DNA from: Squalus acanthias
Lineage: Eukaryota
NCBI GenBank assembly: GCA_030390025.1
Contig: CM059452.1
Location: 8,618,001-8,682,000, forward strand
DNA length: 64,000 nucleotides
Reading direction: 5' to 3'
Shown: piece after piece, positions 6,116-62,181 of the stretch
Numbering within the stretch: position 1 is the first letter of the stretch
How the letters are laid out: every line of letters starts with the position of its first letter
Made by a program: the position numbers and the translations under genes
The notes under the pieces: model-generated
Seen by the model: the letters and a program-made list of their open reading frames with translations, nothing else
Database searches by the model: none
What the model was told of the DNA's origin: nothing

Positions 6116-6129
6116 CCACCAGGTGGCGC
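6116..6129 (+). promoter_or_regulatory. CTCF-consensus motif CCACCAGGTGGCGC downstream of V RSS
   Basis: Matches CCASYAGRKGGCRS about 43 bp after the nonamer. Confidence 0.7.
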
Positions 6130-6439
6130 TGACAGAGCGCGGAGTACCCCCGCCGGTCATCTTACATCAACCAATACTGACTGAGATTTCTCAATACAAA
6201 TTAATGCGAAATTTATTTTTATCTCACATTTCTACTCATTAATGTTAAACATTTCCTTACAGTTTTTTTTCTATTTCCCACCGTTACTTTCAGCCCCTGC
6301 TTTTAATCCACTTCACGGTTGAAGACTTTGACAAAAATTGTATAATATATAATTCTGCAATTCCTGACACTAGTCTGCTTGTCTCGAGGCTACATCATTA
6401 CATAAATTAGCTACATCATTACATAAATTTAAAACAGAA

Positions 6440-6740
6440 ATAGACAGTTTGCTCGAAGTAAAGGGAATTAAGGGTTACGGGGAGCGGGCAGGAATTTGGA
6501 CATGAGTCTAGGTTCGGATCGGTCATGGCCCTGTGGGTAGTGTCGTGGGCCCAGGGGCCGTGTAGCCTGATCCTGCTCCTATTTCGTGTGTCCAATTCTG
6601 TTAGGTTCAGGAGATGGTTCTGTGATAATAGATTGGCGGTTAGGATCAGATCAGCCATGATCTTATTGAATGGTGGAGCAGGCTCGAGGGGCAAATTGAC
6701 CTACTCCTGATCCTATTTCTTATGTTCTTATGTTCTTATG
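6440..6740 (+). mobile_element. CR1 3'-end remnants
   Basis: agatcagccatgatcttattgaatggtggagcaggctcgagggg...(ttatgttc)n tail. Confidence 0.75.
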
Positions 6741-7047
6741 TAATTTGAAACGATTGTGAAAGTAACGCAGCCCTTATAGAGAGGCAGAGTTTTATAATTT
6801 CCGATGGGGACATTATTATTGAATTCAGTTCCTCACAGGTGGATCCCACGTGTGACAACACTGCCCGCGGCAGCGCCGCCCACAGCTGCCGTTTGCTGCT
6901 CTCGCTCTGACCTGCCTTGCCTGCACTGTGTTATTGGAGAGATTGCTGCCGCCGTTCCCTGTTTGGCAGTGCAGTGGGGCGGGGATCTGTATTTCTGCTC
7001 CGAAAGAGGATTTCCCGGACTGTTGAGTTGCAGACTCAGGGAGCATC

Positions 7048-7399
7048 ATGTGGAACCGTCTCGCACCGCTTCTCGTCATTATATCACTCCTCAGTAATTA
7101 TCTCCGTCCCAGTAAACATCCATTCCCAACCTGACTGCTGTAACCCAGATGGCATTATTGGTGAAATGATAGTGATGACCTTTACAATTACTTTATGTTA
7201 GAATGGAGCCACCAAGACACAGTGCAACAGCTGACTCCTGCAATGGTGGTTGAAGAGGAAAGTAACGTCACACTAAGCTGCACCTTAAAAACAAGAGATC
7301 CTAACCCATATGTGTTCTGGTACATTCAGCAGCTCGGGTATCCTCCACAGAACGTGTTTTATCTCTCTGGAGGGATATAGCGGATCCCGCACAAAAACC
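7048..7399 (+). pseudogene. Truncated TCR V (leader 7048-7093; FR1-FR2 7202-~7366) fused to RSS spacer+nonamer of another V family
   Basis: DTVQQLTP..VTLSCT..VFWYIQQ; 7367-7399 matches the spacer/nonamer at 55230-55262; no FR3 and no heptamer. Confidence 0.85.
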
Positions 7400-7423
7400 C
7401 ACACTGAGAGCTCCAGTAAGTGC

Positions 7424-7437
7424 TCACCAGAGGGCGC
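7424..7437 (+). promoter_or_regulatory. CTCF-consensus motif TCACCAGAGGGCGC
   Basis: About 25 bp after the nonamer. Confidence 0.6.
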
Positions 7438-7729
7438 TTTCATGCCGAAAACTGCAACAATAATTCAGCCTCCCGCTTCAGAGTCATAGGGACCTTCTTA
7501 AAAGGTCGAGAAAACACAACTCTCAACAAGAACAGGTGAGGCCCACTCGCAGAATTATATTAGCCCGGATATTCCGATCCCTACAGATGGGTAGGCGCTG
7601 TGTACCCACCCGTAGGGACATCGGAAAAGTCGGTTTCAGGCATGCACAGCGCATGCGCTGAAAACCGGCCTTTCCGATCTGTCAAGAATGCTCTTGACAG
7701 ATCGGACGCCGGCCCTGGAGAACAGAGAT

Positions 7730-11550: not shown

Positions 11551-11748
11551 CCCTGAAAAATGTAAAAAAGGAAATGAATCAGCAAGATTTAAACTGGATT
11601 GGACATTGACCTTATATGTTTATCGATATATGTGATCAATATCGCTGCAATACCCCTCCCCATAAATGGGCGCTGGAAACTGCCCCATAGAATCACTTAC
11701 AGTGTGTTTTAATTCAGTATCCGAGCAGTGTAAAGGTTCCCATCGTAT

Positions 11749-11762
11749 CCGCCAGAGGGCGC
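11749..11762 (+). promoter_or_regulatory. CTCF-consensus motif CCGCCAGAGGGCGC downstream of a minus-strand V RSS
   Basis: About 65 bp beyond the nonamer; same motif and flank at 62168-62181. Confidence 0.7.
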
Positions 11763-11827
11763 CATAATCACATGTTTCTCGCTGCTCCCTCGGGATTCGG
11801 TTTAGCTCAGATCAGTGAAGCGCCCGG

Positions 11828-12344
11828 AGTTTCTGTACGAGGGTTTAACTGGTTTCCATCACCGTGAGTCTCAGGACACAATAATAAACCGCAGTGTCGG
11901 CCAGTTGCAGCACCCAGATTGTTAAACTGTTGAATTTACTTGAGATCTGGAGCTCTGCAGAGAAGCGGGTATGAGCAATTACTGCTTTATCTTCATAACC
12001 GCTCGGGTATTTCATCAGAGTAAACTCGGGCTGTGTGTCTGGGAATTGCCTGTACGAGTATAAATAATAGCTGCTCCGTGTAGTCTCAAAGGTACAGCTT
12101 AAAGTCACCGCTTCTCCTTCTGTCTTAACTCCTGAGGACAGCGGCTGAGTGACAGAATCTCCAAGTCTCAGATCTGAAAAACATGTTCAAACAGGAAAAG
12201 ATCAGACCGGCGGGTGCTTGAAATTCAGATTCAAAACCTGTTAGAAATGAGAGAAAAGATGAAATGTGTTTGGTCCACAATAACCTGTCAGAAATGCTCC
12301 CCCCCCCCGTCCCCCCACACAGCCCAGATGCTGAGTAGCCGCAT
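11828..12344 (-). pseudogene. TCR V (leader 12285-12344, V exon 11867-12173, RSS 11828-11866 CACGGTG-23-ACAGAAACT); FR2 Trp->Ser and 14-nt G-rich insertion frameshifting the leader
   Basis: GDSVTQPLSSGVKTEGEAVTLSC...YSYRQ...DTAVYYCVLR; paralog of 56575-57089. Confidence 0.88.
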
Positions 12345-13236
12345 TGTCGCTGGCCGCTCTGTAAAAGGGGGGTTGGATATTTGAAGACCCCCGTTCTAAT
12401 TCCCGCCCTGAATAATCTGCTGTCGTGCCTCAGGATGCTCTCACCTCACTTCCTGGTGTCCCAAGTGGTGCTGTGAGACCGGTAGGTGGTGAGCTGGCTG
12501 CCAGTGAATGGAAACACCCCAAGCTGGGCTACAGCCAGTGTCCTTATAGGGGAATGGTTCCGCTTTTAGAGAATGGGAACGGAATGAAACTCTTGTCTGG
12601 TTATTGTAACCCAGAAGCTCAGCGATTGTTAATGGTGACAGAAAACATTCCAGCACCAAAGAGACATTCTGAAGGGCAATGGACATTGGGAGAACTTTGT
12701 GCTTGGGGCTTGTTTTAAAGAGCACAATCGCTACATTGTGAAATCTGTTCATTGTGTGTAAACTGTCTCTGAGCCAGCAACATACTCTGATCAAATAAAC
12801 CCTGTGTACAGGCCGCGATCAAAGAGCTTGGGAAACTGACAGGGGAGATGTGTAAAGGGCTGCACAATACTGCAGGCATCAAAGGACAAAAGAGGAGTTA
12901 AGGGTCACAGACGGATTTTTGATGTTCATTTTTATTATAAATGCGAGTTGCAATCATAAACTAATATAATTCCTGACCTCACCTGCTCTTGCTGAGTGTT
13001 ATAATTTGTTGAAAGTTTAAGAATCTCCCCGCGGCTCTCATTATGGAGACTGAATTATTACTTCTGCTTATCGCTGTGAGAGCAGAAGTCCGGATTATAT
13101 TGGCAGCCTTTTACAGATGGCGCTGGTTGAACTGCTCCTGATGTCCTATGTGGACAGTGAAAAGGTGTTCCTAGTGCTGGTGTGAATGCTACTAATTAAG
13201 AAAGGGATTAACTGATGATTTAAATAATTTTTACAG

Positions 13237-16190: not shown

Positions 16191-16628
16191 ATGTCGTACC
16201 GTCACCTCATTATATTGTGCCTGGTGTTCGGTAGGTATGGCCAGGCCTTGTGTCTGTTTGCACTAATGTGATGTTAATAGACTTTCTACCTCAGTATTGT
16301 ATTCAAATTTAACTTTTATTTCAGGGGAGATTCAGGCAGATTCGGTGTCACAACCTCAGACCGCGCTGTATGTCACTGAAGGAGATGCTGTGAAAATAGA
16401 CTGTAGCTACACAACAAGCTACAGTAACCCCGATCTGTACTGGTACCAGCAGCACACGAACCAGGCTCCGCGATTTATTTTGTACCGGGATAACAGCAGG
16501 AAAAAGGATGCGGATTTTGCCAAGGGAAGATTCGAGGCCGACCAGACCAACGCAGAAAAGAAGTTTCCTTTAACGATCACTCGAGCGGAAATCCAGGACA
16601 CCGCCGTATATTACTGCGGGCTGAGAAT
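16191..16628 (+). CDS. Intact TCR alpha/delta-type V segment (leader 16191-16230, V exon 16325-16628)
   Basis: MSYRHLIILCLVF-GEIQADSVSQPQ..KIDC..LYWYQQ..GRF..DTAVYYCGLR; canonical splice sites; TGACGT half-CRE at 15966. Confidence 0.93.
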
Positions 16629-16667
16629 CACAGTGTTTTAAAACTCATCTGTCACTGTACAAAAACC
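16629..16667 (+). other. Perfect 23-RSS CACAGTG-23-ACAAAAACC
   Basis: Exact consensus heptamer and nonamer. Confidence 0.97.
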
Positions 16668-16717
16668 TCTGCGGCAGATGGTGCCTCCAGTTCAAGGGAA
16701 CACACCCGTGTCTGTAA

Positions 16718-38350: not shown

Positions 38351-38379
38351 GTCAGTGTTGTGGGATACAGGGGGAAACT

Positions 38380-39215: not shown

Positions 39216-39339
39216 GCTCTCTGGAAGTGCCAGGTTAGCGTGAGCCTGACAGTAAAGGGCCTGTTAAAATATAAGGACACTTTGCATTTCTTAATCATTT
39301 ATTTTATAAGGAATGTCATTAACATGTGTTCTTTTGAAG

Positions 39340-39657: not shown

Positions 39658-40589
39658 GTAAGAGACACAACCCCGGGAAGTTCCAGATCATTCTGAGCGC
39701 CGATCTCAGTCAGGACTTTTATTGGAATTAGTAAAAAGCACAGAACAATTTCTAATTTCCAATCATACAGTTTGTGTTTCCTTCCGATGTCAGTGCTGAC
39801 TCAGGGTTCCTCACGGTTCAGGATTCCATCACTTCGCCAAATGTTTCCCTCAGCTGTGATGTCAGACAGTGAATGAGGTGTCCTCAGTCTCAGGTTTACC
39901 CTGAGAAAGCTCTATTTCTAATTTCCAATCATGCTGTTTGTGTTTTCTTCCGATATAAAAGAAAAGAAAGAACTGCCTTTACATAGCGCCATTCCCGACC
40001 TCCGGACGTCCCAAAGCGCTTTACTGCCAAGGAAGTACTTCCTGAAATGTGGTCACTGTTGTAATGTAGAAATCGCGGCGGCCAATTTGCAGACAGTAAG
40101 GTCCCACAAACAACAATGTAATAATGACCAGAGAATCTTATTATTTGGTGATGTTTGTTGAGGGATAAGTATTGGCCAGGACACCTGGGAGAACTGGCCT
40201 GCTCTTCCTCGAAATAGTGCCATAGGATCTTTTACGTCCACCTGAGAGAGCAGACGGGGCGTCGGTTTAACTTCTAAAGCGAAAGACGGCACCTCCGTCA
40301 GTGCAGCTCTCCCTCAGTGCTGCACTAGGTGTGTCAATTTACATTTTGTGTTCAAGTATTTGGAGTGAGACTTGAACCCACGATCTTCTGAATCAGGATT
40401 CCTCAGGTTCATGATTCCATAACCTCGCCAAAGGAGGTTTCCCTCTGCTCTGATGTCAGTCAGTGAGTGAGGTGTCTTCGGTCTCAGGTTAATCCTGAGT
40501 TGGCTGATCATATTCGGAGCGGCAGTAGGTGTCTGGAACCCTTTACTGGTAACTGTCTCGGGACCCACTGCTAGAAAGGGCATCTTCCC

Positions 40590-41140
40590 TATTTAGAGAA
40601 CTGCGTTCAATTCTGGACACCGCGCATCAGGATGGATATATTGGCCTTGGAGGGGCCGCAGTGCAGATTTAAAAGAATGACACGGGGATAAAAGTGTTAA
40701 ATAATGAGGAGAGGCTGCACAGATAGACTCGTATTCCTCTGAGTATAGAAGATTAAGAGGTGATCTAATTGAGGTGTTTAAGTTGATAAATGGAATTGAT
40801 AGGGGAGATAGAGAGAAACTAATTCCTCTGGTGCGGGAGTCCAGAACAAGAGGCATAACCTTAAAATTAGAACTGAGCCGTTCAGGGGTGATGTCAGGAA
40901 ACACTTCTTCACACGAAGGACAGTGGAAATCTGGAACTCTCCCCGCCAAATGCTCTTGAGTCTGTGGGCCAATTGCAAATTTCAAAACTGAGATTGATAG
41001 ATGTTTGTTAGGCAAAGGTATCAAGGGTTACAGAAACAAGGCGGGTAGATGGTGTTGAGGTGTAGATCAGCCATGATCTCATTGAATGGCGGAACAGGCT
41101 GGATGGGCCGAATGGCCTGCTCCTGGTCCTCTGTTGCTAT
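40590..41140 (+). mobile_element. CR1 3' fragment
   Basis: RRLRGDLIEVFK-like sequence and typical 3' UTR. Confidence 0.85.
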
Positions 41141-41833
41141 TACTGCCCTGCGGTCATATTTCCTCTCTCTCAAACCAGACATGTTAAGTGCTCACAAATG
41201 ACAGAAATGAACAAACTACTTCATATCGGCATTACACATTATTCACCACCACAAAAGACCCCTTGGAACTCCATTCTCCCGACCTTTCACTTCTCCTCTG
41301 ACGGGGCCGCAACTGATTCCTGCACATTTTCATCGCCCCCAAAATCGCAACAAGACACCAGAAAATTAACTTTGTTTCCTGTTGCAATAAAATCCTGGAT
41401 TTCATTTGACACTCGGTTTGAACCAGTGTAATTTTCGTGTAGAGCTCTTGACCCTGGGGGAGGGACCATTATAATGAGCGGGAATGCGTTCGGGGACAAG
41501 GAGCTATAGAGTGGCGTAAAGGAGCAAGGGATTTCGGGAAGATCGCTATTTACTGCCTAATAAAATTGCGGCCGAATTTATTCAAAGTTTTTACGCCGGG
41601 TGTTTGCTTCACAGCCGATTACAGGAGGCTCTGGGAGCAAATACACAGGAAATGTTAAAGTGTCTCGGGGAATCGTTGTCAATTCGTTGTCCTTCCAATA
41701 ACGATGGTGTTTAAGCAACAACGAGAGGTTAATCTCTCAAAGGTGATTTATTCTTCCTGAGAGAGTGAAGGCTGAATACTGGTGTCCTGATTCTGAAGAT
41801 GAAGCTTTGCTTGACTTTCTTTTCTGTTCTCAG

Positions 41834-42142
41834 ATGAGATCCAATGCAACGATCCAGAAATCACTCTTCCGCAACCGTCACTAGAACAAGTCTTACTGGA
41901 GGCGACGGTGACCTTAACCTGCGTCGTGTCTAATGTTCCTTATGGAGTCAACGTGTCCTGGACCCGAGAAAAGGAGACTTTGAAATCAGAGATTGCCGTC
42001 CAACCCGGAGAGGCTCCCAACAGCGTGATCAGCAACTTAAACATCTCGACACAAGCCTGGCTGAGTGGGGATGAGTTCTACTGCGTGGTAAGCCATCAGG
42101 ATATGCCGACTCCTATAAGAGATTCCATCCACAAGGAAAAAG
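41834..42142 (+). CDS. IGHM: IgM Cmu3 exon
   Basis: [45 protein letters not shown]; ctcag| and G|GTGAG. Confidence 0.95.
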
Positions 42143-42661
42143 GTGAGCGGTGAGATTGTAGCAATAAGTGAGACACTGTGACTATTTCCGGTGCTTGTGC
42201 ACGGCCCAATTCGTTCTATTCAGTGTTTTAATGGACTGCTCTGATAATTCAAAAGCTATTTCCACTAACTATACCCTCTGCGACCCGAGATGATGCATTT
42301 AAAGGGAAGCTGGATAAGTCAATGAGGGAAAAAGGAATAGAAGGATATGTTATGAGGGTTAGAGGAAGTAAGGTGGGAGGAGTCTCGTGTGGAGCATTAG
42401 CAGCAGCATTCATCAGTTGGACCGAATGGTCTGTTTCGATGATGTAAATTCTATAAAAAATTTCCTGTCCAACTCTTCAAGCTCCCAGAGAGAAGGATTG
42501 TATCCCCCTCTGCTCGGGGCTGGAAAACCGGACAGGACACAGAGGGGGAAAGTGAATCGTTCAAAATTCAGTGCAAAGCACATTTCTCTCACATCTAACC
42601 GCCGGTTGCATTGTCTCTGGAATTCTCCTCTTTATTGACCTTTATTGTAATTGTTTTGCAG

Positions 42662-43053
42662 TTGAAGATCCGCGGGAACCGTCCGTGTCTGTCCTCCTGC
42701 CCCCGGCAGAAGAAGTCTCCGCTCAGAGGTTCGTGACCCTCACCTGCTTAGTGAGAGGTTTCTCCCCCCGAGAGATCTTCGTCAAGTGGACCGTCAATGA
42801 CAAGCCGGTGAATTCCGGCAACTACAAGAACACCGAGGTGATGGCGGAGAACGGCAGCAGTTCCTTCTTCATGTACAGCCTGTTATCAATTACAGTGGAG
42901 GAGTGGGCCAGCGGCGCATCTTATACCTGTGTGGTGGGACATGAAGCGATCCCCTTGAAGATCATCAACAGAACGGTTAATAAAACCAGCGGTAAACCCA
43001 GTTTTGTGAACATTTCCCTTGTTCTGATGGATACCGTCAATTCTTGTCAATGA
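42662..43053 (+). CDS. IGHM: IgM Cmu4 exon plus secretory tailpiece (internal donor for the membrane form after 42991)
   Basis: [50 protein letters not shown]; N-x-S glycan site and penultimate Cys. Confidence 0.96.
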
Positions 43054-43081
43054 GAATCTCTCGATTGCATTTCAGTTGTTG

Positions 43082-43097
43082 AATAAAAACCAATAAA
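43082..43097 (+). terminator. Tandem AATAAA polyA signals for the secreted mu transcript
   Basis: AATAAA at 43082 and 43092. Confidence 0.8.
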
Positions 43098-43489
43098 GGC
43101 CTTTTCTTCCAATCGTCAGTTACACACACAGCCGCTCAATTAATTTTGTTTTCCATTTTTGCCAAGGGGAGGGCTGTTTATCTGAAGTAGGATATTTGCT
43201 GGTCTCGGACCCAAGGCTTGTACAGCCAGCGCTCCCAGCTCAGATACACCACGGGTTAGAGACAGACTGAAGCTCTTTCATGACAGGATTCCTCAAAGTC
43301 ACTTCAGCAACTTTCCTCCCGCTGGGGGAAATCAAAAAGTTCCCATTTCAGACAGACAAACGCAGCACATTTAGATCTCGGTGTCCCTGTTTCTCGTGCT
43401 GTCCATCCCTTCAGAATTGGGGCCTGTTTTATTTTGCAGCATCGCACCCTCTGGGATACGATATAAGGCAACTCACGCACACGAACTGT

Positions 43490-44883
43490 CACCCCTACTC
43501 CCCCACCAGAGAGAGGGGAAAGGGCAATTGTTAACCCACTGTACCTCCCACTCCCCCACTAGAGAGAGGGGAAAGGGCAATTGTTAACCCACTGTACCCC
43601 CCACTCCCCCACCAGAGAGAGGGGAAAGGGTAATTGTTAACCCACTGTACCCCCACTCCCCCACCAGAGAGAGGGGAAAGGGCAATTGTTAACCCACTGT
43701 ATCCCCACTCCCCCACCAGAGAGAGGGGAAAGGGCAATAGCTAACGCACTGTACCCCCCACTCCCCCACCAGAGAGAGGGGAAAGTGCAATTGTTAACCC
43801 ACTGTACCTCCCACTCCCCCATCAGAGAGAGAGGAAACGGTAATTGTTAACACACTGTACCCCCACTCCCACACCAGAGAGAGGGGAAAGGGCAATTGTT
43901 AACCCACTGTCCCCCCACTCCCCCACCAGAGAGAGGGGAAAGGGCCATTGTTAACCCACTGTACCCCCCACTCCCCCACCAGAGAGAGAGGAAAGGGTAA
44001 TTGTTAACCCACTGTACCTCCCATTCCCCCACCAGAGAGAGGGGAGAGGGCAATTATTAACACACTGTCCCTCCCACTCCCCCACCAGAGAGAGGGCAAA
44101 GGACAATTGTTAACCCACTGTACCCCCGCTCCCCCACCAGAGAGAGGGGAAAGGGCAATAGCTAACCCACTGTACCCCCCACTCCCCCACCAGAGAGAGG
44201 GGAAAGGGCATTTGTTAACCCACTGTACCCCCACTCCCCCACCAGAGAGAGGGGAAACGGCAATAGCTAACCCACTGTACCCCCCACTTCCCCACCAGAG
44301 AGAGGGGAAAGGGCAATTGTTAACCCACTGTACCTCCCACTCCCCCACCAGAGAGAGGGGAAAGGGCAATTGTTAACCCACTGTATCTCCCACTCCCCCA
44401 CCAGAGAGAGGTAAAAGGGCAATTGTTAACCCACTGTACCGCCACTCCCCCACCAGAGAGAGGGGCAAGGGCAAGTGTTAACCCACTGTACCCCCACTCC
44501 CCCACCAGAGAGAGGGGAAAGGGCAATTGTTAACCCACTGTACCTCCCACTCCCCCACCAGAGAGAGGGGAAAGGGCAATTGTTAACCCACTGTACCCCC
44601 ACTCCCCCACCAGAGGCAGTGGAAAGGGCAATTGTTAACCCACTGTACCCCCACTCCCCCACCATAGAAAGGGGAAAGGGCAATTGTTAACCCACTGTAC
44701 CCACACTCCCCCACCAGAGAGAGGGGAAAGGGCAATTGTTAACCCACTGTACCTCCCACTCTCCACCAGAGAGAGTGGAAAGGGCAATTGTTAACCCACT
44801 GTTCACTCACACACCCAACAGAGAGAGGGGAAAGGGCAATTGTTAACCCACTGTACCCCCCACTCCCCCACCAGAGAGAGGGG
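43490..44883. repeat. 52/53-bp minisatellite (about 26 copies)
   Basis: cccactcccccaccagagagaggggaaagggcaattgttaacccactgtac. Confidence 0.95.
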
Positions 44884-45584
44884 AGCTGCACAACTTTCTA
44901 TTATAGTAACTCAGTTCCCATCAGTAAAAAGTCAGCTTCTAACTCACTGTCCAAAATCGTTAAACCTGCCGCATGGGAATCAAATTGTAAAATAAATATT
45001 TATTCAACATCTTTAGCTAGTATTTTGGGTAAACCCGTCCCTGTTATTCGTAAACTAACAGATTGAATTTTAATAGTCCAACCCTAAACTGGCGATTGAA
45101 TCCTCTCAGGGTTTCTCACGGTTGTGTCCCTGAAGGTTCTGAGGCCCATCGGTTGAATTGTTGCATTCCATCGGCTGACGTCACAATGCGTCTCCCACAG
45201 AACACATTTACATAGAGCGGGGAAGAATGCGTGTAAAAGTGAGTGTGTCTGTGTTTATGTGTAAGTGTGTTTGCAATTTTGTGTAAGTGTGTGTATTTTG
45301 TGTCAGTGCACACACACACATAAACACACACGCACTTACACATAAACACACATTAACACACTGACACAGAATATTACACATACCCAGGATATAATACACA
45401 CCGTCATTGTCAGACCCAGTTATTGGTGCTCTCTGAAACTTTGAACAATAGCAAAAATACACACACACACCCTTACACAAAACACACACAAACACACGCA
45501 TTAACACACACACACTTACACACGCATAAACACACACATCAACACAAAAACACACTTACACAAAACACACACTTATAATTACAA

Positions 45585-47212
45585 TCACCAGGGAAGTGGT
45601 ACTGAGCAAATTGTTGGAACTCCGGTCTGACAAGTCCTCGGGTCCTGATGAACTTCATCCTAGGGACTTAAAAGTAGTGGCTGGTGAGGTAGTTGATGCG
45701 TTGGTTTTAATTTTCCAAAATTCCCTAGATTCGGGGAAAGATCCATTAGATTGGAAAATAGCGAATGTAACTCCTTTATTCAAAAAGGGAGGGAGACAGA
45801 AAGCAGAAAACTACAGGCCAGTTAGCTTAACATCTGTCATAGGGAAGATGTTAGAAGCTATTATTAAAGATGTTATAGCAGGGCACTTAGAAACGTTCAA
45901 GGTAATGAGGCAGAGTGAACAAGGTTTTGTGAAAAGAAAATAATGTTTAACCAAATTATTGGAGTTCTTTGAGGAAGTAACATGTGCTGTGGATAAAGGG
46001 GAACCGGTGGATGTACTGTACTTAGATTTCCAGAAGACATTTGAGAAGGTGCCACATCAAAGGTTATTGCGGAAAATAAAAGATCATGGTTTAGGGGGTA
46101 ACATATTGGCATGTATAGAAGATTGGCTAGCTAATAGGAAACAGAGAGTAGGCAGAAATGGGTCATTTTCTGGTTGGCAAGTTGTAACGAGTGGTGTGCC
46201 ACAGGGATCAGTGCTGGGGCTTCAACTTTTTACAATTTATATAAATGACTTGGATGAAGGGACCGAAGGTATGGTTGCTAAATTTGCTGATGATACAAAG
46301 ATAGGTAGGAAAGTAAATTGTGAAGAGGACATAAGGAGGCTACAAAAGGATATAGATAGGTTAAGTGAGTGCGCACAGATCTGGCAAATGGAGTATAATG
46401 TGAGAAAATGTGAAATTCTCCATTCTGGCAGGAAGAATAAAAAATAAGCATATTATCTAAATGGTGAAAGATTGCAGAGCTCTGAGATGCAGAGGGATCT
46501 GGGTGTCCTAGTGCATGAATCGCAAAAGGTTAGTATGCAGGTATAGCAAGTAATTAGGAAATCTAATAGAATGTTATCGTTTATTGCGAGGGGAATTGAA
46601 TACAAAAGTAGGGAGGTTATGCTTCAGTTATACAGGGCATTGGTGGGACCACATCTGGAGTACTGTGTACAGTATTGGTCTCCTTTTTTAAGGAAGGATG
46701 TAAATGCGTTGGAAGCAGTTCGGAGAAGGTTTACTAGACTAATACCTGGAATGGGCGGGTTGTCTTATGAGGAAAGGTTGGACAGGCTAGGCTTGTATCC
46801 GCTGGAATTTAGAAGAGTAAGAGGTGACTTGATTGAAACATGTAAGATCCTGAGGGGTCTGAACAGGGTGGATGTGGAGAGGATGTTTCCTCTTGTGGGA
46901 GAATCTAGAACTGGGGGTCACTGTTTAAAAATAAGGGGTCGCCCATTTAAGACAGAGATGATGAGACATTTTTTCTCACAGAGGGTCGTGAGTCTTTGGA
47001 ACTCTCTTTCTCAGAGGGCGGTGGAAGCAGAGGCTTTGAATATATTTACGGCAGACGTAGATTCTTGATAAATAAGGGGGTGAAATGTTATCGGGGGTAG
47101 GCGGGAATGTGGAGTAATCAGGTCAGCCATGATCTTATTAAATGGCGGAGCAGGCTCGAGGGGCCGAGTGGCCTACTCCTGCTCCTATCTTCTATGTTTC
47201 TATGTTTCTATG
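45585..47212 (+). mobile_element. CR1 RT 3' half inserted within a CA-rich simple repeat
   Basis: ORFs 45596-45943, 45959-46447, 46571-47068; (ctatgttt)n tail. Confidence 0.92.
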
Positions 47213-48064
47213 GCGGCGGTTGTTATACACATAAACACACACATGAAGGCATTTAGACACAAACGCACACACACTTAAACATAAACACACACAATTACAC
47301 ATAGATACACCTACATAGAATTACACATAAACACACACACTTACACATCAACACACACATTAACACACAAACAGAGACGATACCAAAACAAGAGATCGTC
47401 AGACTCACAAATGCAAACACTAAAGCGCGCAAAAAACGTCAGGCTATCGACGAATGTAGAATTAAAATTCACTTTTTTACGGACTCAGTATCACACGATT
47501 ATACTGATTGAATAATTCCTGATTCCATAACATCTCACATTTCTCTATTCTGCTCCTACACATACACTGAATCAATGTTCTTGTTGGAAACTGATACAAG
47601 TTAATTATATTCAGAGCACTGCCAAAACAAATAAATAAACAAGATTATAACTCACATCTAATATCTTACCCAGCCCCCTTGACAGTCTCCAAATAAGTAG
47701 CTATCTAAACCTATCATTAAAATAATCGATATCAATCAGTAAACCTCCCTCGATATTTCATATAATTCTCGAATGATAGATTGTATGAAATTGATGCAAA
47801 ATCAATTAGCGTGTGACATTGAAGAAAAGAAATATCATATTTTCCAACACGGACTATAGGAGGATCCTAAAGGAAGAGCGACTGTGGAATTAGGAACAGA
47901 GATAGATTGCTGACAGTGATTAACTTAACACAAGATATACATTGAAAATTCAATTAGAGAACAAACTGATACCTTAAGGAAAATAAAAGAGAATATATAA
48001 TAATAATAAGATATCTTTATTTAATAAAGGATCTGAATATATTTCCTCCTCTACATCCCCGTAG

Positions 48065-48192
48065 ATTCGTCAGACCACATCTTGATTGAAGACTATGAGG
48101 AAGAGAGCGGCAGCATCTGGACAACCGCTTCCACATTCATCATCCTGTTCTTCCTGAGCATGTCCTACAGCGCTGCCCTCACTCTAGTGAAG
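48065..48192 (+). CDS. IGHM: IgM transmembrane exon TM1
   Basis: cgtag|DSSDHILIEDYEEESGSIWTTASTFIILFFLSMSYSAALTLVK|GTGAG; Ig TM motif. Confidence 0.93.
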
Positions 48193-48332
48193 GTGAGAAG
48201 ATTCAATCCACTCACACTTCGATCTGACTGAAGCGGTTTGACAAATCTCTAAAAGTTTCATTGATTAAAACCCTGAGATAAATGCCCCAAACCACTAAAT
48301 CTCTGCTTCATTCTTTTATCCCTCTTTTACAG

Positions 48333-48341
48333 GTCAAGTGA
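48333..48341 (+). CDS. IGHM: IgM TM2 exon (VK*)
   Basis: ttttacag|GTC AAG TGA; AATAAA at 48405. Confidence 0.9.
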   Translation, partial: VK

Positions 48342-48973: not shown

Positions 48974-48987
48974 GCGCCACCTAGTGC
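48974..48987 (-). promoter_or_regulatory. Reverse-oriented CTCF-like motif (GCACTAGGTGGCGC) 3' of the IgM gene
   Basis: Plus strand reads gcgccacctagtgc. Confidence 0.55.
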
Positions 48988-50197: not shown

Positions 50198-51556
50198 CCT
50201 CGGGGTCACAGCCCTCCGCCAGGGGTCACAGGCAGCACACACGGGGAATCGTTAGCGCTGAGCGGAGCCTGGAGACTGCTCGTGACCTCTGACCCTCAGT
50301 GAATGTGAAAAACAGCCAATTGCGGTGCTCTGACATGCGAAAAGCATTGTGGCGTCATCCAGTGCAGGGCAAAGCGGTGACGGCCATGTTTGTGTGACGT
50401 ACGGTGTGACGTGTGACTTCAATTCCCACAAAAGAAACGGTCTCCCTTTCTTAATAAAAAGGCGAAAATATGCGACAGAGATAAAGATACAGACAGCGAT
50501 AATTGAAGCGGTTGGCGAGTTGCGCATGTGCGAAGAGTGCTCCCAGGCAGCAGCACGGCCCGTGGTCTACATTGGGCCTATTCTGGTCCGCTGTGCATTG
50601 TGGTAATCTCTGTCCTTCATGGCTGCTTAAATCACTGACAGGGTGTGAGCCAACTGAACCACTGAATGGCAATTTATTACAGCCTCCCTCGGGGAAACTG
50701 CCACACAGTCAGAGTTCTCCTTACAGGCCAATAGCACTTGGTCAGATTTATTGCAGGTTAACTGACGCACTTAGGCAGCCAGTGACCGGAACAGCAAGAA
50801 TAGCGAAACAGTTGAGAAATCTCTCTATTTTCTCCACAGATCTCCCGCAACATTCAACTAATTTTCTCTTTCATGTCCTCTCCCATTCGGTTGTGGGTTT
50901 CCAACACCTCTGTTTTCAAGCTTGGAAAGTGGCATCTAAATATAGTGAAACTAAAATAGAGTAATGGGTCGGAGGATTTCCCGAGCATCTCAATACATTA
51001 AATACTTGGTTTTGAAGGAATACACGAGATGAAATAACACACTCAGGCAGAATATGGGAACCAGATCCTGTCCCATTAACGGAGCGACCAGCATGAGGTT
51101 CCTGGCGCTGTCAGCAACCTCTTTCTCGGAGCTGATCTTAACATTATTCACTGACCTGTCTGCAGTACTTGTCTATGGGAAGCTGGGTTAGAGCGGTTCT
51201 GAATTAATATGCCGTGCAGCAGTAAAGGTTTTACATCGTTAAACTAAAGACTGGAAGAAGAAAGTCCATACGATTAGTAAAGAGTGGAGACAAGGGATGA
51301 GAAGAGACAGGCAGGCCCGGAAATTGCATCAAAAGACAAAAGGTGAGTTGTGGAACCACAGACATGATTGCTGAAGTTCATTTTTAGTATAAATGCGAGT
51401 TGAAATCACAAACTAATATAATTCGGCCAGGGGACCTCACCTGTTCTTGTTGAGTGCTGTGTTTTTTTAATACTTTTAAGGAGATCCGTGTGACTCTCAC
51501 TGTGGAGACTGAATTATTGCTTCTGGTTATCGGTTTGAGAGCGCCCTCTCAGTGTG

Positions 51557-51667
51557 CGTTTTGGTACACTAGGGACGTTGAATAGTTACAATTAATGCTC
51601 ATTGAGGTTCCTTCCAGATATTGGGCTTCTGTTGGCCACTGCTTCAAGGAATCTCCAGAACTCAGTC
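51557..51667 (-). pseudogene. TCR V FR1 fragment (same family as 5740) fused to a nonamer remnant and downstream flank of another V family
   Basis: GLSSGDSLKQWPTEAQYLEGTSMSINCNYSTS, then ACCAAAACG-CACACTGAGAGGGCGC; 51350-51556 matches 55263-55480 inverted. Confidence 0.85.
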
Positions 51668-54790: not shown

Positions 54791-55222
54791 ATGTGCTCCC
54801 CGTGTTCCATACTGATAATAATGGTCGTGCTGTCCAGTGAGTACATGTGTAAATGGTCATTGTGTGTTTCACGGATTATCCTTACTCCCAGACTTTTGAC
54901 ACATTCTGTGTTTTGTTACAGGAACGAGTGGCAAAGAATCAGTGTCCCAGGATCCGTCTGAATTAATGGTTCAGCAAGGAAAAAACATTATATTGAACTG
55001 CAGTTACTCGGCAGCTGCTCCAACTCTGTTCTGGTACATCCAGTATCCCGGGGAAGCTCCGAGATATTTACTGAGGATAGATAGCTCGGGGACGGTAGAC
55101 CGGTCTCCAGATTTCCCAGGCCGGTTTTCTGCTGTTTTGCACAGAGACAGCAAAACGGTTCCTTTAAATATCACCGCGGTTCTTGTCTCCGACAGCGCCG
55201 TGTATTTCTGTGCCATGAGCCC
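54791..55222 (+). CDS. Intact TCR alpha/delta-type V segment (leader 54791-54836, V exon 54922-55222)
   Basis: SVSQDPSELMVQQGKNIILNC..LFWYIQ..GRF..DSAVYFCAMS. Confidence 0.92.
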
Positions 55223-55262
55223 CACACTGCTGAAGAGATACAGCGGATCCCGTACAAAAACC
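55223..55262 (+). other. RSS CACACTG-24-ACAAAAACC
   Basis: Follows the V exon; spacer counted as 24 nt. Confidence 0.88.
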
Positions 55263-55286: not shown

Positions 55287-55300
55287 TCACCAGAGGGCGC
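55287..55300 (+). promoter_or_regulatory. CTCF-consensus motif TCACCAGAGGGCGC
   Basis: About 25 bp after the nonamer. Confidence 0.6.
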
Positions 55301-56574: not shown

Positions 56575-57050
56575 ATGCGGCTACTCAGCATCTGGGCTGT
56601 GTGGGGGGCATTTCTGACAGGTAATTATGGACCAAACACATTTCATCTTTTCTATCATTTCTAAACATGGTTTGACTCTGAATTTTAAACACCCGCTGGG
56701 GTGATCTTTTCAAGTTTGAACATGTTTTTCAGATCTGAGTCTTGGAGATTCTGTCACTCAGCCGCTGTCCTCAGGAGTTAAGACAGAAGGAGAAGCGATG
56801 ACTGTAAACTGTAGCTACGACACAAAATGGAGCACCTTTAATTATTTATATTGGTACCGGAACCACCCAGACACACAGCCCGAGTTTATACTGTGGAAGG
56901 ATCATGATGGTGTTGATGGTGTTGAGCATAAAGCAGATTTTGGTAAAACCCGTTTCTCTGCAGAAATCCAGACCTGGACTAAATTCACCAGTTTAACCAT
57001 CTCGGGGCTGCAGCTGACCGACGCTGCAGTTTATTACTGCGCCCTGAGAC
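56575..57050 (+). CDS. Intact TCR alpha/delta-type V segment (leader 56575-56620, V exon 56733-57050)
   Basis: MRLLSIWAVWGAFLT-DLSLGDSVTQP..VNC..LYWYRN..RFSAE..DAAVYYCALR. Confidence 0.92.
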
Positions 57051-57089
57051 CACACTAATGGAAACCAGTTAAACCCTGGTACAGAAACT
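57051..57089 (+). other. 23-RSS CACACTA-23-ACAGAAACT
   Basis: Follows the V exon. Confidence 0.82.
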
Positions 57090-57801
57090 CCCGCCGTTTT
57101 GTAGATCAGCGGCTCCGCCTGCTGAAGCCGGATATAAGGCTCACTTTGTGCTGTTTGCGGTTCCGGCCATCCTGAGAACTGTTCCCAAAGTCTCTCATTT
57201 GTCGGTTGGGTTCAGTCTGTGCAGTTTCCGCGTTGTTTTCCCCGTTACTCACTGGGAACTGTCTCTCCTGAATCACTGCCACCTTCATCTTCAGACTATT
57301 GGCTGTCGCTCTTTTGCCTGTTTTCTGGACAGTTTTCTCTGAGTTTGCGCACCAGCTGGGGAATGGGAGTCTCGCGGGGTCAGAGTTCAGCCGAGACTTC
57401 TTTGTTCTGAAGGTGTTTTGACTCCTCAATGGTTTATTACATCGTCACTGAATGTGTTCCCTCCGTTCAGTTCATTTCCTGCCGACTGGAGCGCCAGGTC
57501 TGAGTGCGATTCTGACACAGAATGAGAACTGGTTTATATTTGTTTCACTATGTTTGAAAGTTGAGGTGCCCATTCCATGAACAGGGATTGGAAGCACCGT
57601 CCGATCGAATACCTTATTATCAAATTAGCAACACGATTATTTTTATTAATAATAAACATGATGTTTCATGTTCTGTACTGTTAGTTGGATAGCGATTGAT
57701 TTGTCAGTTTTTACACGGATACTCTCCTGTGAGAAGTACTGACAGTCCCCGTTTCTCCCCACACTGCCCGCTATCCAGTTGTCCCTGTCACATTCCGGCA
57801 G

Positions 57802-58371
57802 TGTGTTTGTACGGGGCTCCCTGTGGTTCCTGTCACTGTGTCTCTCAGCCCGCAGTGATACACCGCGCTGTCAGACAGCCGTAGGCCGCGGATGGTGAAA
57901 TTCCCCTCACTTTCTGAAATGTCGTGAAATGCGGAAATTCGAGCCCCCCTGTCCTCTGCTTTGAAAACATCTCCCGAAGAAGGACTGTAGATCAGCAATG
58001 TTGGCCCTTTGTCGCGGTCCTGACGGTACAGTTGTAAGGAATGTGAAGGAGCAGTGGTCGAATTGCTGTAATTACTGGTCACCGAGTCTCCTTCAAACTG
58101 CATCGCTGCAAGCGGCCCCTGTGAGACCGAGTCCGCACAACTAACACCCGCAGAAATATAGAAATACACAACTTTAAACCTATCTTATCATTTTATTATA
58201 ACTGACAGTTTCAAGGTGACGGAACATACAGGAAATTGAGGGAAAATACAGTTAAAAGGAAGATTCTCTATGGCAGTGATACGTGCAAGAGGGAGGATTG
58301 TGTAACTTGTAAACTTTACCAGTTAAGAGAGCCGCAGCTGTGACGAATGAATTAAAAGTAACTCCTAACAT
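57802..58371 (-). pseudogene. TCR V pseudogene (leader 58320-58371, V 57841-58147, RSS 57802-57840); acceptor AG->GG, first Cys and FR2 Trp lost
   Basis: ADSVSQGP..EGDSVTSNYS..LQLYRQ..DSAVYHCGLR; CACAGTG-23-ACAAACACA. Confidence 0.88.
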
Positions 58372-58837: not shown

Positions 58838-58851
58838 CCAGCAGAGGGCGA
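58838..58851 (+). promoter_or_regulatory. CTCF-consensus motif CCAGCAGAGGGCGA
   Basis: Motif match. Confidence 0.55.
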
Positions 58852-59988: not shown

Positions 59989-60114
59989 TCAGCGAGAATT
60001 TACAGCTCCATCAAGTGTTCTTTTGTGCTGCTTTCTGTGGGGTTAATTTGATCCCAAACCCACGGAGACTAAAGACAGCAAGGTTTCTATTTCAACGAGT
60101 TGTATTTGTGTCTG

Positions 60115-60470
60115 TGTCTTTGCCCAAATCAGCGGAGAACCGGTTTGGGAAATCTGGAGACTTCACTCCCTGCCCCGAGCTGTATCTCCTCATTAAATAT
60201 CTCGGATCTTCCCCGGGGATACTGGTTGTACCAGAAGAGGTAGGGAAATCTATCGGCTGTGGAGTAACTAGAGTTCAGTATTAAGATCTGTCCTTCCTGA
60301 ACCGTTAATTCAAGTGGATCCTGGGAAAATGAGGCTTCACCATTGTAACAAAATACTGAATCTGTCAGAAGTCTGGGAGTAAATATAACCCATGAAATAC
60401 ATACGATATTTTAAACATAGACTCACCGGGCAGCACGACCATTATTATCAGTAAGAAACATGGGGAGCTG
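60115..60470 (-). pseudogene. TCR V pseudogene (family of 1348/54922): leader ATG and acceptor deleted, Cys->Ser, frameshift, 3'-truncated
   Basis: SQDPLELTVQEGQILILNSSYSTADRFPYLFWYNQY../..SPDFPNRFSADL. Confidence 0.88.
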
Positions 60471-60579
60471 GTGACTGGTTTAGATGGGAGTCTCCGGCTC
60501 TGATACCAGAACAACATTAACTATTGGTCACTGGCCCCATCTCACAGACTGACGCTGTTAAAGGGCGAACATTGGCTTT

Positions 60580-60938
60580 AATCCTCGTGCAGTTCTGAGG
60601 AGAACAATTTCACTCCGTTCTCGCATCCCCGCTCTGACGTCATGAATTGGCGAACAAAGTAGCTGTGAGCTGATTGGTTGAATTGGAAAACAAAGGAGCT
60701 GCAAACTGATTGGATAAATTGGAGAACAAAGGACCGAGAGCTGATTGGATGTGATCTGCTGACTCTGTCGGGAACGGACCAATCGGCAGAGACCGGATAT
60801 TACTCAACATCTTCCCAATTCTTGACTACAAGACAATTTCAGCTTCAAACCGTTCTGTTCAAATCCACCACCAACTCTCTGCAAACATGTTGGGTGTTAC
60901 TTTTTATTTATTCGTCGCAGCTGCAGCTCTCTTAACTG
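60580..60938 (+). pseudogene. Orphan V promoter (CRE 60635-60642, CCAAT repeats) and leader exon 60887-60938 with dead donor (G|ATAAGT)
   Basis: Inverted paralog of 617-1010 and 58320-58620. Confidence 0.75.
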
Positions 60939-61489
60939 ATAAGTTCACAAGTTACACAGCATTGTGTTTCACATCTGTATCATACATTATATTTAATCGG
61001 TCAGTTCCCTGAACACATGAATATCAATAGGTTGATCCGAAGTGAAGAAAACCATCAGGATCCACCTTGACTCAACACTGAACACTGTTTGGGGAAACTC
61101 GACAAACTCCCTCAGTGAATGAAAGCGGATGAGTTGAGGTGAGATTACAGGCGAATGGCAGACAGACAAGCCCGTCGGCGTCAATGACGGACATTGACAG
61201 ACACACGAGTCTTAAACCCACAGACAGTTTGGAGTTTTCCCTTCACATCACAAGAGGTGAAGGTGAGGAACTGATCCCGTTGGAAGGTGCTGAAGGTTAA
61301 TTAAAGGATGTTTATTCAGTCGATCCCAGCGCCATCCCGTGAGCAGCCCCTGAGCTGTGGGGATATATATTTATGTTCAACTGCCCTGATTTGCTTCACA
61401 GTTAAGTGTTGAGGGTGACGGGCTGATTCTGGTCGGTAAACAGAGTGAAGTGACATTGTTTAATTTAATATCGCTCTGGGCTCTTGCAG

Positions 61490-61600
61490 GACATGGGCGA
61501 GGAGACTCCGGTTCACAGACACCGGCTGCAACCACAGTAAATGAAGGAGACGATGTTCAGTTGTATTGTAATTATACAGCCACAAGCATCAATCATATCT
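61490..61600 (+). pseudogene. TCR V FR1 fragment ending in a TA/TCTA microsatellite
   Basis: ttgcag|GHGRGDSGSQTPAATTVNEGDDVQLYCNYTAT. Confidence 0.78.
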
Positions 61601-62167
61601 ATCTATCTATCTATCCATATATATATATATATTGTGCAGGTAGATGAGTGAAAGTCTTTCATAGAGGTAACCAGGCTGCTGACTGACAAACAGATGGACA
61701 GCGGCCTGTCTGGGCCTCGGTCGCTTGTTCTCCCTGAGCAGGGGGACCAGTTTGTATTCGGGTTCCCACAGTGCGGAGACACAGAGAAAGGAATCACTGG
61801 ACACCGGGTAATACAGGAGGAGAAACATACTGACTGTCTGGAGCCTGTGCACAAAGGTCACGAGCATCTGGCACCAGTAGAACTGAAAGGAAATGAAAGT
61901 CAGTTGTTGTGAATGTGGGTTGTGAGTTGTTGTTTATTTTGCAGATCAGAAAGGGTTAAATCTGCGAGCGCAAGCTGTCAATTTCCGAGCTCGAATACAT
62001 CTGATTGATGTTTCTGTCGCTGTAAGTGTTGATGTAAAAGGCTCTACATTCGCCATCAGCATCACCGCAACACATCTCGCTATAGATGAGCCCTGGAAAC
62101 TGCCCATAGATACACTGACTGTCTGTTTTCACCCAGGATCTCAAAAGTGTAAAAGTTCCCATTATAT

Positions 62168-62181
62168 CCGCCAGAGGGCGC
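62168..62181 (+). promoter_or_regulatory. CTCF-consensus motif CCGCCAGAGGGCGC in a paralog of the 11728-11787 flank; no adjacent V seen
   Basis: gtgtaaa(a/g)gttcccat..tatccgccagagggcgcc..atgtttctcgctgct shared between the two sites. Confidence 0.65.

What the first reader, a model, noticed from the sequence alone, without database searches (positions are those of the whole stretch)
6116..62181. RSS-adjacent CTCF motifs, co-oriented regardless of V strand
Seen: CTCF-consensus matches at 6116, 7424, 11749, 55287, 58838 and 62168, with weaker ones at 13110 and 16671, all on the + strand. Five lie 3-65 bp beyond a V nonamer, including one for a minus-strand V (11749). A degraded minus-strand copy lies at 51541. 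Established: RSS-proximal CTCF elements promote use of mouse proximal VH segments during cohesin loop-extrusion RAG scanning. Inference: a similar architecture may operate in a shark TCR locus, with polarity preserved through local inversions.
Basis: partly seen in the sequence, partly recalled or inferred. Interest (0 to 1): 0.7.

Follow-up and report, generated by a model that had tools for sequence, protein, structure and literature searches.

The report
Aligned CTCF sites in shark TCR-V
A stretch of shark T-cell-receptor-type variable gene segments carries strong binding motifs for the chromosome-folding protein CTCF, several just past the cutting signals and mostly facing one way as in mouse antibody and T-cell-receptor loci, which hints that this folding layout is very old, but binding and function are untested and the one-way bias is not proven.

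Summary
The six strong + strand CTCF motifs are real (7 matches on both strands, 0.51 expected). Four lie 24-65 bp past a V nonamer, far above chance.

The six sites are four lineages; a strong minus site at 48974 was missed; 13110 is noise; two weak minus sites next to RSSs outscore the weak + sites. By lineage the bias is 4+ to 1- (p=0.375). 'Regardless of V strand' rests on one pseudogene V. Only 1 of 4 RSS-adjacent strong sites flanks an intact V.

New here: among paralogous V flanks, 4 of 4 copies whose motif reads + keep it intact, and 0 of 4 inverted copies have a strong one (post hoc p=0.03). All three intact Vs are +. A teleost TCRα/δ V contig also has only + strong sites, none at an RSS.

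Best reading: a co-oriented V-region CTCF array like mouse Tcra/d, Tcrb and Igh, kept polar by loss in inverted copies. A RAG-scanning role is untested. No report for sharks turned up in my searches, and the scan's notes hold no earlier example.

The parts
6116..6129 (+). Strongest CTCF core (0 mismatches, 26.2 bits), 42 bp past the nonamer of pseudogene V3, sense to the V
5740..6073 (+). V3: TCRα/δ-type V exon without the conserved Trp; RSS heptamer begins AAC, so probably non-functional
7424..7437 (+). CTCF core (15.9 bits), 24 bp past the nonamer of chimeric pseudogene V4; paralog of 55287
7200..7399 (+). V4: 5' half of one V fused to the spacer and nonamer of a V9-type RSS; no heptamer
11635..11791 (+). 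157-bp CTCF cassette with core at 11749-11762 (19.8 bits), 65 bp past the V5 nonamer and antisense to V5; paralog of 62055-62210
11828..12344 (-). V5: pseudogene (frameshifted leader, Trp replaced by Ser), inside an inverted duplicate (11818-13083) of the V9-flank/V10 block (55299-57099)
12906..13083 (-). Inverted copy of the V9-type RSS flank; homology stops at the 3' end of the CTCF core, which is absent
13110..13123 (+).
16191..16667 (+). V7: intact leader, exon and consensus 23-RSS
16671..16684 (+). Weak CTCF-like motif (6.6 bits), 3 bp past the V7 nonamer; doubtful
48974..48987 (-).
50216..50229 (+). Intermediate site (2 mismatches, 14.1 bits) at the edge of a repeat that recurs at 53784-53920; uncertain
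51331..51567 (-).
54791..55262 (+). V9: intact leader and exon, RSS with 24-bp spacer; the only intact V with a strong RSS-adjacent site
55287..55300 (+). CTCF core (18.9 bits), 24 bp past the V9 nonamer, sense to the V
56575..57089 (+). V10: open leader and exon, heptamer with 2 mismatches; paralog of V5 with a different 3' flank
57112..57125 (-). Weak minus motif (7.8 bits), 22 bp past the V10 nonamer
58838..58851 (+). CTCF core (19.3 bits), intergenic, about 700-800 bp from the V11 and V12 exons on their upstream sides; no RSS nearby
60005..60018 (-). Weak minus motif (8.6 bits), 16 bp past the nonamer of pseudogene V12
62055..62210 (+). Second copy of the CTCF cassette, core at 62168-62181 (19.5 bits); no V or RSS beside it
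1309..1770 (-). V1: V9-family V with an open frame 5 codons shorter than V9 in framework 3; good RSS; no strong site (best 3.9 bits)
2566..2900 (-). V2: pseudogene with a stop codon; no CTCF site at its RSS
57802..58150 (-). V11: pseudogene lacking the first Cys and the Trp; no strong site at its RSS (best 2.8 bits)
29431..48341 (+). Context: whole IgM cluster embedded in the TCR-type V array; germline-joined VDJ out of frame at J; CH1-CH4, secretory tail and TM exons open

Best explanation
The strong motifs are real CTCF-binding elements in a duplicating, pseudogene-rich shark TCRα/δ-type V array. Their polarity belongs to the chromosome, not to each V. As in mouse Tcra/d, Tcrb and Igh V regions, they probably face one side, here rightwards, where they halt or anchor cohesin loops coming from a distant D-J-C centre and so bring Vs into contact with it. 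Some V families (V9-type at 24 bp, V3-type at 42 bp) carry the element just past the RSS; other sites are intergenic. The polarity appears to be kept by differential survival: + copies keep an intact core even after their V has died, while copies flipped by inversion lose it. The minus-V case (11749) most likely arose when an inverted V duplicate landed beside a separate + cassette. Shown: motifs, distances, paralogy, loss pattern, V status. Inferred: CTCF binding, selection, position of D-J-C on the right, loop anchoring, any effect on V use.
For: Excess of strong motifs (7 vs 0.51; 6 vs 0.42). RSS proximity in 4 of 10 RSSs. Cores are 14/14 identical in both paralog pairs against 75-76% in the flanks (P=0.022 and 0.017). 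Among paralogous flanks, 4 of 4 + copies are intact and 0 of 4 copies that would read minus have a strong motif (51541, 13083, V1, V10); Fisher p=0.029, or 0.067 with only the two alignable inverted flanks. The four V9-type flanks are about equally divergent (68/97 to 85/109), so the two inverted copies are not recent twins. Two lineages share the word G[TC]TCC 8-9 bp upstream of the core (background 0.0034), the 3' half of the upstream CTCF module in the register of the IL3 site (PMC12885311 passages). 3 of 8 plus Vs and 0 of 6 minus Vs are fully intact. In mouse Tcra/d, 129 of 144 sites point to J-C. Teleost TCRα/δ V contig L003 has 4 sites >=12 bits, all + like its Vs (null mean 0.14, 0 of 500 simulations). 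Skate has a CTCF orientation code.
Against: The strand bias by lineage is not significant: 4+ to 1-, p=0.375; 5+ to 1- with 50216, p=0.22; even uncollapsed 6 of 7 gives p=0.125. A strong minus site exists at 48974. The intact-versus-lost contrast was framed after seeing the data; both inverted V9-type flanks also lost their V, so they may simply be wreckage; for V1 and V10 the flank does not align, so loss is inferred. The V4/V9 core test picks 1 of 6 possible pairs, and the whole 39 bp from nonamer to core is conserved (36/39). The V strand-versus-intactness contrast has p=0.21. 3 of 4 RSS-adjacent strong sites flank pseudogenes, and 2 of 3 intact Vs have no strong site. The upstream word was chosen post hoc and matches only 5-6 of 10 letters. 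No occupancy, contact or repertoire data. D-J-C is not in the window, and TCR-type Vs also occur between shark IgH clusters (PMC12227049), so this may be a largely orphan array.
Confidence: 0.5

Rival explanations
1. One reading: RSS-proximal CTCF elements act as in mouse proximal VH, stalling cohesin so that a scanning RAG complex dwells on the adjacent RSS and uses that V more. Selection places a + site next to Vs of either strand.
For: 4 of 10 RSSs have a strong site within 65 bp, and 7 of 10 have a motif of >=6.5 bits within 70 bp against a background of 5.5%. The sense sites at 24 and 42 bp resemble the human IGH gaps of 19 and 48 bp. The mouse mechanism is described in 10.1101/2020.01.01.891473 (passages). 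A Trbv1 element anchors loops and promotes recombination at a TCR locus (PMC10772921 section 8).
Against: Only one minus V has a site, and it is a pseudogene beside a cassette that also occurs without a V. Gaps are not fixed. 3 of 4 sites flank dead Vs, whereas non-functional mouse 7183/Q52 VH typically lack the site. Scanning cannot join inverted Vs. Two of the three weak RSS-adjacent motifs are on the minus strand.
Confidence: 0.17
2. Real CTCF sites with no selected polarity or RSS role. A few ancestral sites were copied with V flanks during duplication; the + excess and the losses in inverted copies are small-number accidents of a decaying region.
For: Four lineages only, p=0.375. Most Vs are pseudogenes or fragments (11 of 14). 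Inversion breakpoints wreck flanks generally. In mouse Igk the site orientation does not correlate with V orientation, so independence from V strand needs no special mechanism.
Against: Three lineages (V3, V9-type, cassette) sit within 65 bp of a nonamer. Cores are perfectly kept in copies whose flanks differ by about 24%. The loss pattern is one-sided.
Confidence: 0.23
3. The sites are general insulator or domain-boundary elements that fence the embedded IgM cluster off from the TCR V array, unrelated to V choice.
For: A minus site (48974) and a + site (50216) lie back to back just 3' of the IgM cluster, a divergent arrangement of the kind seen at skate insulation minima. The + sites at 6116-11749 converge with 48974 across the IgM cluster. 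A partial upstream module, linked to insulator activity in PMC12885311, is present in two lineages.
Against: It does not explain the RSS adjacency or the three + sites to the right of the IgM cluster. 50216 is doubtful. The IgM VDJ is out of frame.
Confidence: 0.07
4. Chance matches, or motifs of another factor (the 6116 site contains an E-box word).
For: No binding data; the matrix was recalled from memory.
Against: 0 of 100 shuffles reach 7 matches of the published consensus. Five of the six sites lack the E-box word. The CTCF motif is nearly identical in lamprey, chicken and human (PMC5504073 passages).
Confidence: 0.03

Closest known systems
RSS-associated CTCF sites of mouse and human IgH V genes (Ciccone et al. 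2019, PMC6746451; Ba et al. preprint 10.1101/2020.01.01.891473)
   Same: Strong CTCF core a short way past the V 23-RSS nonamer; restricted to some V families; one dominant orientation; mixed with intergenic and upstream sites.
   Different: Here the Vs are TCRα/δ-type in a shark. Gaps are 24, 24, 42 and 65 bp, not a fixed 17-19 bp (mouse) or 19/48 bp (human). One of four is antisense to its V, and three of four flank pseudogenes. Vs lie on both strands, whereas all mouse VH must join by deletion.
V-region CTCF array of mouse Tcra/d and Tcrb (Loguercio et al. 2018, PMC5859386; Allyn et al. 2024, PMC10772921)
   Same: Same receptor class as Tcra/d; many sites among Vs with most facing one way (129 of 144 toward J-C) and a minority reversed. 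Tcrb has 2 sites near an RSS.
   Different: Mouse Tcra/d sites are mostly upstream of V promoters, as in teleost contig L003, whereas 4 of 6 strong + sites here are RSS-adjacent. Direction relative to J-C is unknown here.
Mouse Igk V region (Loguercio et al. 2018, PMC5859386)
   Same: Vs on both strands, and CTCF orientation uncorrelated with V orientation.
   Different: Igk sites are mostly intergenic and occur in both orientations, and its inverted Vs rearrange by inversion; here no minus V is fully intact.
Elasmobranch antigen-receptor complex (Flajnik et al. 2025, PMC12227049)
   Same: IgH miniclusters linked to TCRα/δ, with TCR-type V exons between IgH clusters; fits this window's layout.
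   Different: The two parts of that paper I read do not deal with CTCF, and it did not come up in my CTCF + shark searches.

Membership tests
IgH-type RSS-associated CTCF element | Consensus CTCF core just beyond the V RSS nonamer, more often than chance | tested here: met
   4 of 10 RSSs
IgH-type RSS-associated CTCF element | Fixed gap to the nonamer (17-19 bp mouse; 19 or 48 bp human) | tested here: not met
   24, 24, 42 and 65 bp; fixed only within the V9-type family (standard)
IgH-type RSS-associated CTCF element | One orientation relative to V transcription (>98% in mouse) | tested here: not met
   3 sense and 1 antisense among strong sites; 1 sense and 2 antisense among weak ones
IgH-type RSS-associated CTCF element | Present at functional Vs, usually absent at non-functional ones | tested here: not met
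   1 of 4 strong sites flanks an intact V; 1 of 3 intact Vs has one
IgH-type RSS-associated CTCF element | Core more conserved than the surrounding sequence | tested here: inconclusive
   14/14 vs 75-76% in two pairs, but the V4/V9 stretch from nonamer to core is also 36/39; the cross-species lay showed 40 of 1123 rows
IgH-type RSS-associated CTCF element | Raises use of the adjacent V through contact with the recombination centre | not testable with these tools
   Needs repertoire and contact data
Co-oriented V-region CTCF array (Tcra/d, Tcrb, Igh) | CTCF motif density above background among V segments | tested here: met
   7 vs 0.51; 8 vs 1.0 at >=14 bits
Co-oriented V-region CTCF array (Tcra/d, Tcrb, Igh) | Strong strand bias | tested here: inconclusive
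   6 of 7 (p=0.125); 4 of 5 lineages (p=0.375); one-sided loss in inverted copies, post hoc p=0.03-0.07
Co-oriented V-region CTCF array (Tcra/d, Tcrb, Igh) | Sites point toward D-J-C and converge with sites there | not testable with these tools
   No TCR D-J-C seen in the window; no whole genome held
Co-oriented V-region CTCF array (Tcra/d, Tcrb, Igh) | CTCF and cohesin occupancy in developing lymphocytes | not testable with these tools
   Needs ChIP or CUT&RUN

The most novel reading that the evidence does not exclude
Polarised, RSS-proximal CTCF elements were already part of the ancestral jawed-vertebrate TCRα/δ-IgH complex. In sharks, selection acts on the chromosomal direction of each site, purging it whenever a V flank is inverted, and inverted Vs die because V capture is direction-dependent loop-extrusion scanning. 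Scanning-based V(D)J joining would then predate the shark/bony-fish split, and the mammalian IgH RSS-CTCF design would be a retained ancient feature, not a mammalian invention.
Probability: 0.2. Interest if true: 0.72.

Novelty: new member of a known kind. Interest (0 to 1): 0.45.

Why it matters
CTCF-guided folding of antigen-receptor loci has been worked out in mouse, with motif surveys in a few other mammals. Sharks belong to the oldest lineage with RAG-based receptors. If their TCRα/δ V array has a polarised CTCF layout, the link between loop extrusion and V(D)J joining is as old as the system. The window gives named test sites: 55287 beside intact V9, its naturally deleted inverted twin at 51541, and intact V7 and V10 without strong sites. 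The locus-wide scan is cheap on existing shark assemblies. If the bias vanishes there, the finding is an ordinary set of duplicated CTCF sites.

Tried and rejected
1. Whole-locus scan: not possible, no genome is held for this window.

2. Cross-species motif conservation. Contigs of 4 of the 23 listed runs (X2, X11, X12, X15) were laid on 54760-62300. Only 40 of 1123 variant rows were shown. None fell in the three cores, but about 0.2 would be expected there, so this is uninformative. The V9-type flank is covered by several contigs in all four runs (26, 31, 31 and 6 contigs carry the variant at 55346), and contigs of X11 and X12 span 58838. Of 566 joints 15 were shown, none linking a V10-type RSS to the 62168 cassette, so the cassette's ancestral position is unresolved. 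No RNA holder was listed; no conclusion on expression.

3. A search of metagenome contigs for the V9 nonamer-flank word found 0 stretches. The protein search gave 3 overlapping teleost contigs, counted as one locus, and no shark DNA.

4. 13110 as a CTCF site: rejected (1.2 bits).

5. Decayed sense motifs beside V1 (3.9 bits) and V11 (2.8 bits): near background, not counted as motifs; the V7/V11 alignment past the nonamer is poor.

6. V10's weak minus motif as a homolog of the V5 site: the flanks do not align.

7. Repeat origin of the strong sites: the neighbourhoods of 6116, 58838 and 48974 have no second copy in the window. A genome-wide repeat origin could not be tested.

8. CpG observed/expected near the sites (0.55-0.84 against 0.55 for the window): not informative.

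9. The homolog search with V9 returned 1 protein among 1 candidate, of no use.

10. Earlier scan notes: four look-ups; 8 of 69 notes were shown and none concerned CTCF or this locus; the other three returned nothing.

11. Dropped before strand counts: the 52-bp tandem array at 43.4-44.95 kb, one repeated unit that gives 20 weak + hits.
Full report
WHAT THE WINDOW IS. Six-frame translation, an RSS scan and self-comparison show 14 TCR-type V segments or fragments, 8 on + and 6 on -. I number them V1-V14 from the left; V8 is the fragment at 51573-51708. The best single-domain PDB matches of V7 are TCR delta V chains. A whole IgM cluster on + (29431-48341) sits in the middle; its CH4 is 81% identical to a bamboo shark protein and 63% to elephant shark IgH, so the source is a cartilaginous fish. 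TCR-type V exons between IgH clusters are described for elasmobranchs (PMC12227049, parts 1-2 of 8 read). Only V7, V9 and V10 are fully intact, all on +. V1 (-) is open but 5 codons short in framework 3; the rest have stops, frameshifts, lost Cys or Trp, or are truncated. I saw no TCR D, J or C in the window, and no genome is held.

THE MOTIFS ARE REAL. The human consensus CCASYAGRKGGCRS (from PMC6746451) with up to 1 mismatch gives 7 matches; the shuffle mean is 0.51 and 0 of 100 shuffles reach 7. A matrix recalled from JASPAR MA0139.1 (from memory, not from a call) scores the six at 15.9-26.2 bits, 48974 at 15.0 and a further + site at 50216 at 14.1. Markov nulls give 0.42 hits at >=15.5 bits against 6 observed.

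RSS PROXIMITY HOLDS. Of 10 V RSSs or RSS remnants, 4 have a strong site 24-65 bp past the nonamer (V3 42 bp, V4 24, V5 65, V9 24). The chance is about 5e-6 on the window's own background. With paralogs collapsed and only 20 kb counted as eligible it is 0.002 (3 of 6 lineages) or 0.03 (2 of 6, if the cassette lineage is not counted as adjacent). Three more RSSs have weak motifs: V7 (+, 6.6 bits), V10 (-, 7.8) and V12 (-, 8.6). Three of six at that level has P about 0.002, so they may be decayed sites, but two of the three are on the minus strand. 58838 and 62168 have no RSS nearby.

THE POLARITY CLAIM IS WEAKER THAN STATED. 7424 and 55287 are copies of one V9-type flank; 11749 and 62168 are copies of one 157-bp cassette. 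That leaves four + lineages and one minus: p=0.375, or p=0.22 if 50216 is added; uncollapsed 6 of 7 gives p=0.125. At >=6.5 bits outside the tandem array the count is 26 + and 25 -. 'Regardless of V strand' rests on V5 alone; V1, V2 and V11 are also minus Vs with an RSS and have no strong site. V5 is a pseudogene. It lies in an inverted duplicate (11818-13083) of the block 55299-57099. The homology ends about 10 bp past the RSS, and the cassette begins 27 bp further on. The cassette's other copy has no V. So V5 most simply landed beside a separate element, although I could not fix the ancestral state.

WHAT THE PARALOGS ADD. The V9-type flank occurs four times. Both + copies keep the core unchanged (14/14 against 101/135 in the flank). 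The minus copy at 51541 keeps a nonamer remnant but has a 22-bp deletion through the motif. The minus copy ending at 13083 stops aligning right at the core. The four copies are about equally divergent, so the two inverted ones are not recent twins. V1, a minus-strand V9-family gene (77% over 515 bp), has an unrelated flank and no strong site. V10, the + paralog of V5, whose site would read minus if it had V5's layout, also has none. Both cassette copies are + and identical in the core (14/14 against 109/143). The tally is 4 of 4 intact on + and 0 of 4 on minus (p=0.029), or 0 of 2 if only alignable flanks count (p=0.067). I framed this contrast after seeing the data, and the inverted flanks have lost their Vs as well, so it is a lead. 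Both lineages also share G[TC]TCC 8-9 bp upstream of the core (background 0.0034). That resembles the 3' half of the upstream module read by zinc fingers 9-11 (PMC12885311 passages), but only 5-6 of 10 letters match and the word was chosen post hoc.

OUTSIDE EVIDENCE. A search with V10 returned three overlapping contigs, L001-L003, counted as one locus. Its V proteins are closest to teleost proteins, one named TCR alpha/delta variable. L003 has 5 V exons or ends, all +, and 4 sites at >=12 bits, all + (null mean 0.14; 0 of 500 simulations reach 4); it also has one weak + and one weak - hit. None is beside an RSS; two strong sites and the weak + site lie about 200 bp upstream of a likely leader start. 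This resembles mouse Tcra/d, where many sites are upstream of V promoters and 129 of 144 point to J-C (PMC5859386, passages and section 21). It is one small contig. Laying contigs of four related genomes on 54760-62300 could not settle motif conservation, because 40 of 1123 variant rows were shown. Skate has CTCF sites oriented into TADs (PMC10115646 passages), and the motif is nearly identical in lamprey, chicken and human (PMC5504073 passages); that paper also notes that motif scanning alone predicted human Hox sites poorly.

MECHANISM. In mouse Igh, over 100 V-region sites converge with sites at the D-J end, and those directly downstream of proximal VH promote their use during RAG scanning (10.1101/2020.01.01.891473 passages). 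A Trbv1 site anchors and ends loop extrusion and promotes its recombination (PMC10772921 section 8). By analogy the + sites here would stop or anchor loops coming from the right. Scanning cannot perform inversional joins (PMC10772921 introduction part 1), so a site beside an inverted V cannot work that way. That all three intact Vs, the IgM cluster and most strong sites share + fits a productive direction to the right, but 3 of 8 against 0 of 6 has p=0.21.

COMPARISON WITH WHAT IS KNOWN. It works like the V-region CTCF arrays of mouse Tcra/d, Tcrb and Igh. It is not shown to be a member of the IgH RSS-associated class: the fixed gap, the uniform sense orientation and the link to functional Vs (PMC6746451, parts 1-2 of 8 and passages) were tested and not met. 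Independence of site direction from V direction is already known for mouse Igk, and mouse Tcrb has 2 sites near an RSS. PMC6746451 names only mammals and does not mention shark, zebrafish or Xenopus. Searches for shark + CTCF + T cell receptor + recombination signal, CTCF + ChIP-seq + shark + motif + orientation (20 of 24 listed), CTCF + RAG scanning + evolution + fish + immunoglobulin (20 of 21 listed), CTCF + zebrafish + TCR + V genes + binding sites and CTCF + elasmobranch + antigen receptor showed no title or abstract start on CTCF at shark or fish receptor loci. I saw those results as listings only, and the library lacks most subscription papers; no supplements were read. PMC5931798 (passages) says the nurse shark locus was not fully assembled in that study.

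VERDICT. This is a new member of a known kind, in a lineage where I found no report. Interest 0.45. It would deserve about 0.7 if locus-wide polarity, purging in inverted copies and thymic occupancy are confirmed.

Noticed in passing
window 29431-48341 (+): A complete IgM cluster inside the TCR-type V array. Leader, V, CH1-CH4, secretory tail and both TM exons are open, but the VDJ is germline-joined and out of frame at J, with a stop at the J donor. It looks like a processed rearrangement fixed in the germline.
   Followed up: partly
window 48974-48987 (-) and 50216-50229 (+): A strong minus CTCF motif about 630 bp 3' of the last IgM exon and a weaker + motif 1.2 kb further on form a divergent pair; possible boundary, recalling the 3' CTCF elements of mouse Igh.
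   Followed up: partly
window 43485-44884: 52-bp tandem array, 26.7 copies, just 3' of the IgM secretory exon; most units carry a weak + CTCF-like 14-mer (2 mismatches, about 9 bits). Human VH has tandem CTCF hot spots; probably too weak to bind.
   Followed up: no
window 33646-34240 and 38432-39221: Tandem arrays in IgM introns: 67 bp x 8.9 between J and CH1, and 38 bp x 20.8 between CH1 and CH2.
   Followed up: no
window 808-943, 58504-58603, 60642-60751: A 36-bp tandem unit with repeated CCAAT-like words in three paralogous regions; one lies upstream of the V13 leader, so it may be part of a V promoter.
   Followed up: no
window V1-V14: All 3 fully intact Vs are on +; none of 6 minus Vs is fully intact (Fisher p=0.21).
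   Followed up: partly
L003 817, 3235, 4452, 5876, 7038 (+): Teleost TCRα/δ V contig with co-oriented CTCF motifs, three of them about 200 bp upstream of likely V leaders and none at an RSS.
   Followed up: partly
window 18613-18651 (+): An isolated perfect RSS heptamer with weak nonamer-like words at 11, 13 and 23 bp and no V motif found upstream; cryptic or remnant RSS.
   Followed up: no
window 55388/56791 and 55584/60392: Contigs of related genomes join the V9-type flank to a V10-type exon on the opposite strand (2 runs) or to a V13-type leader region (3 runs), so these modules are shuffled and inverted in relatives too.
   Followed up: no
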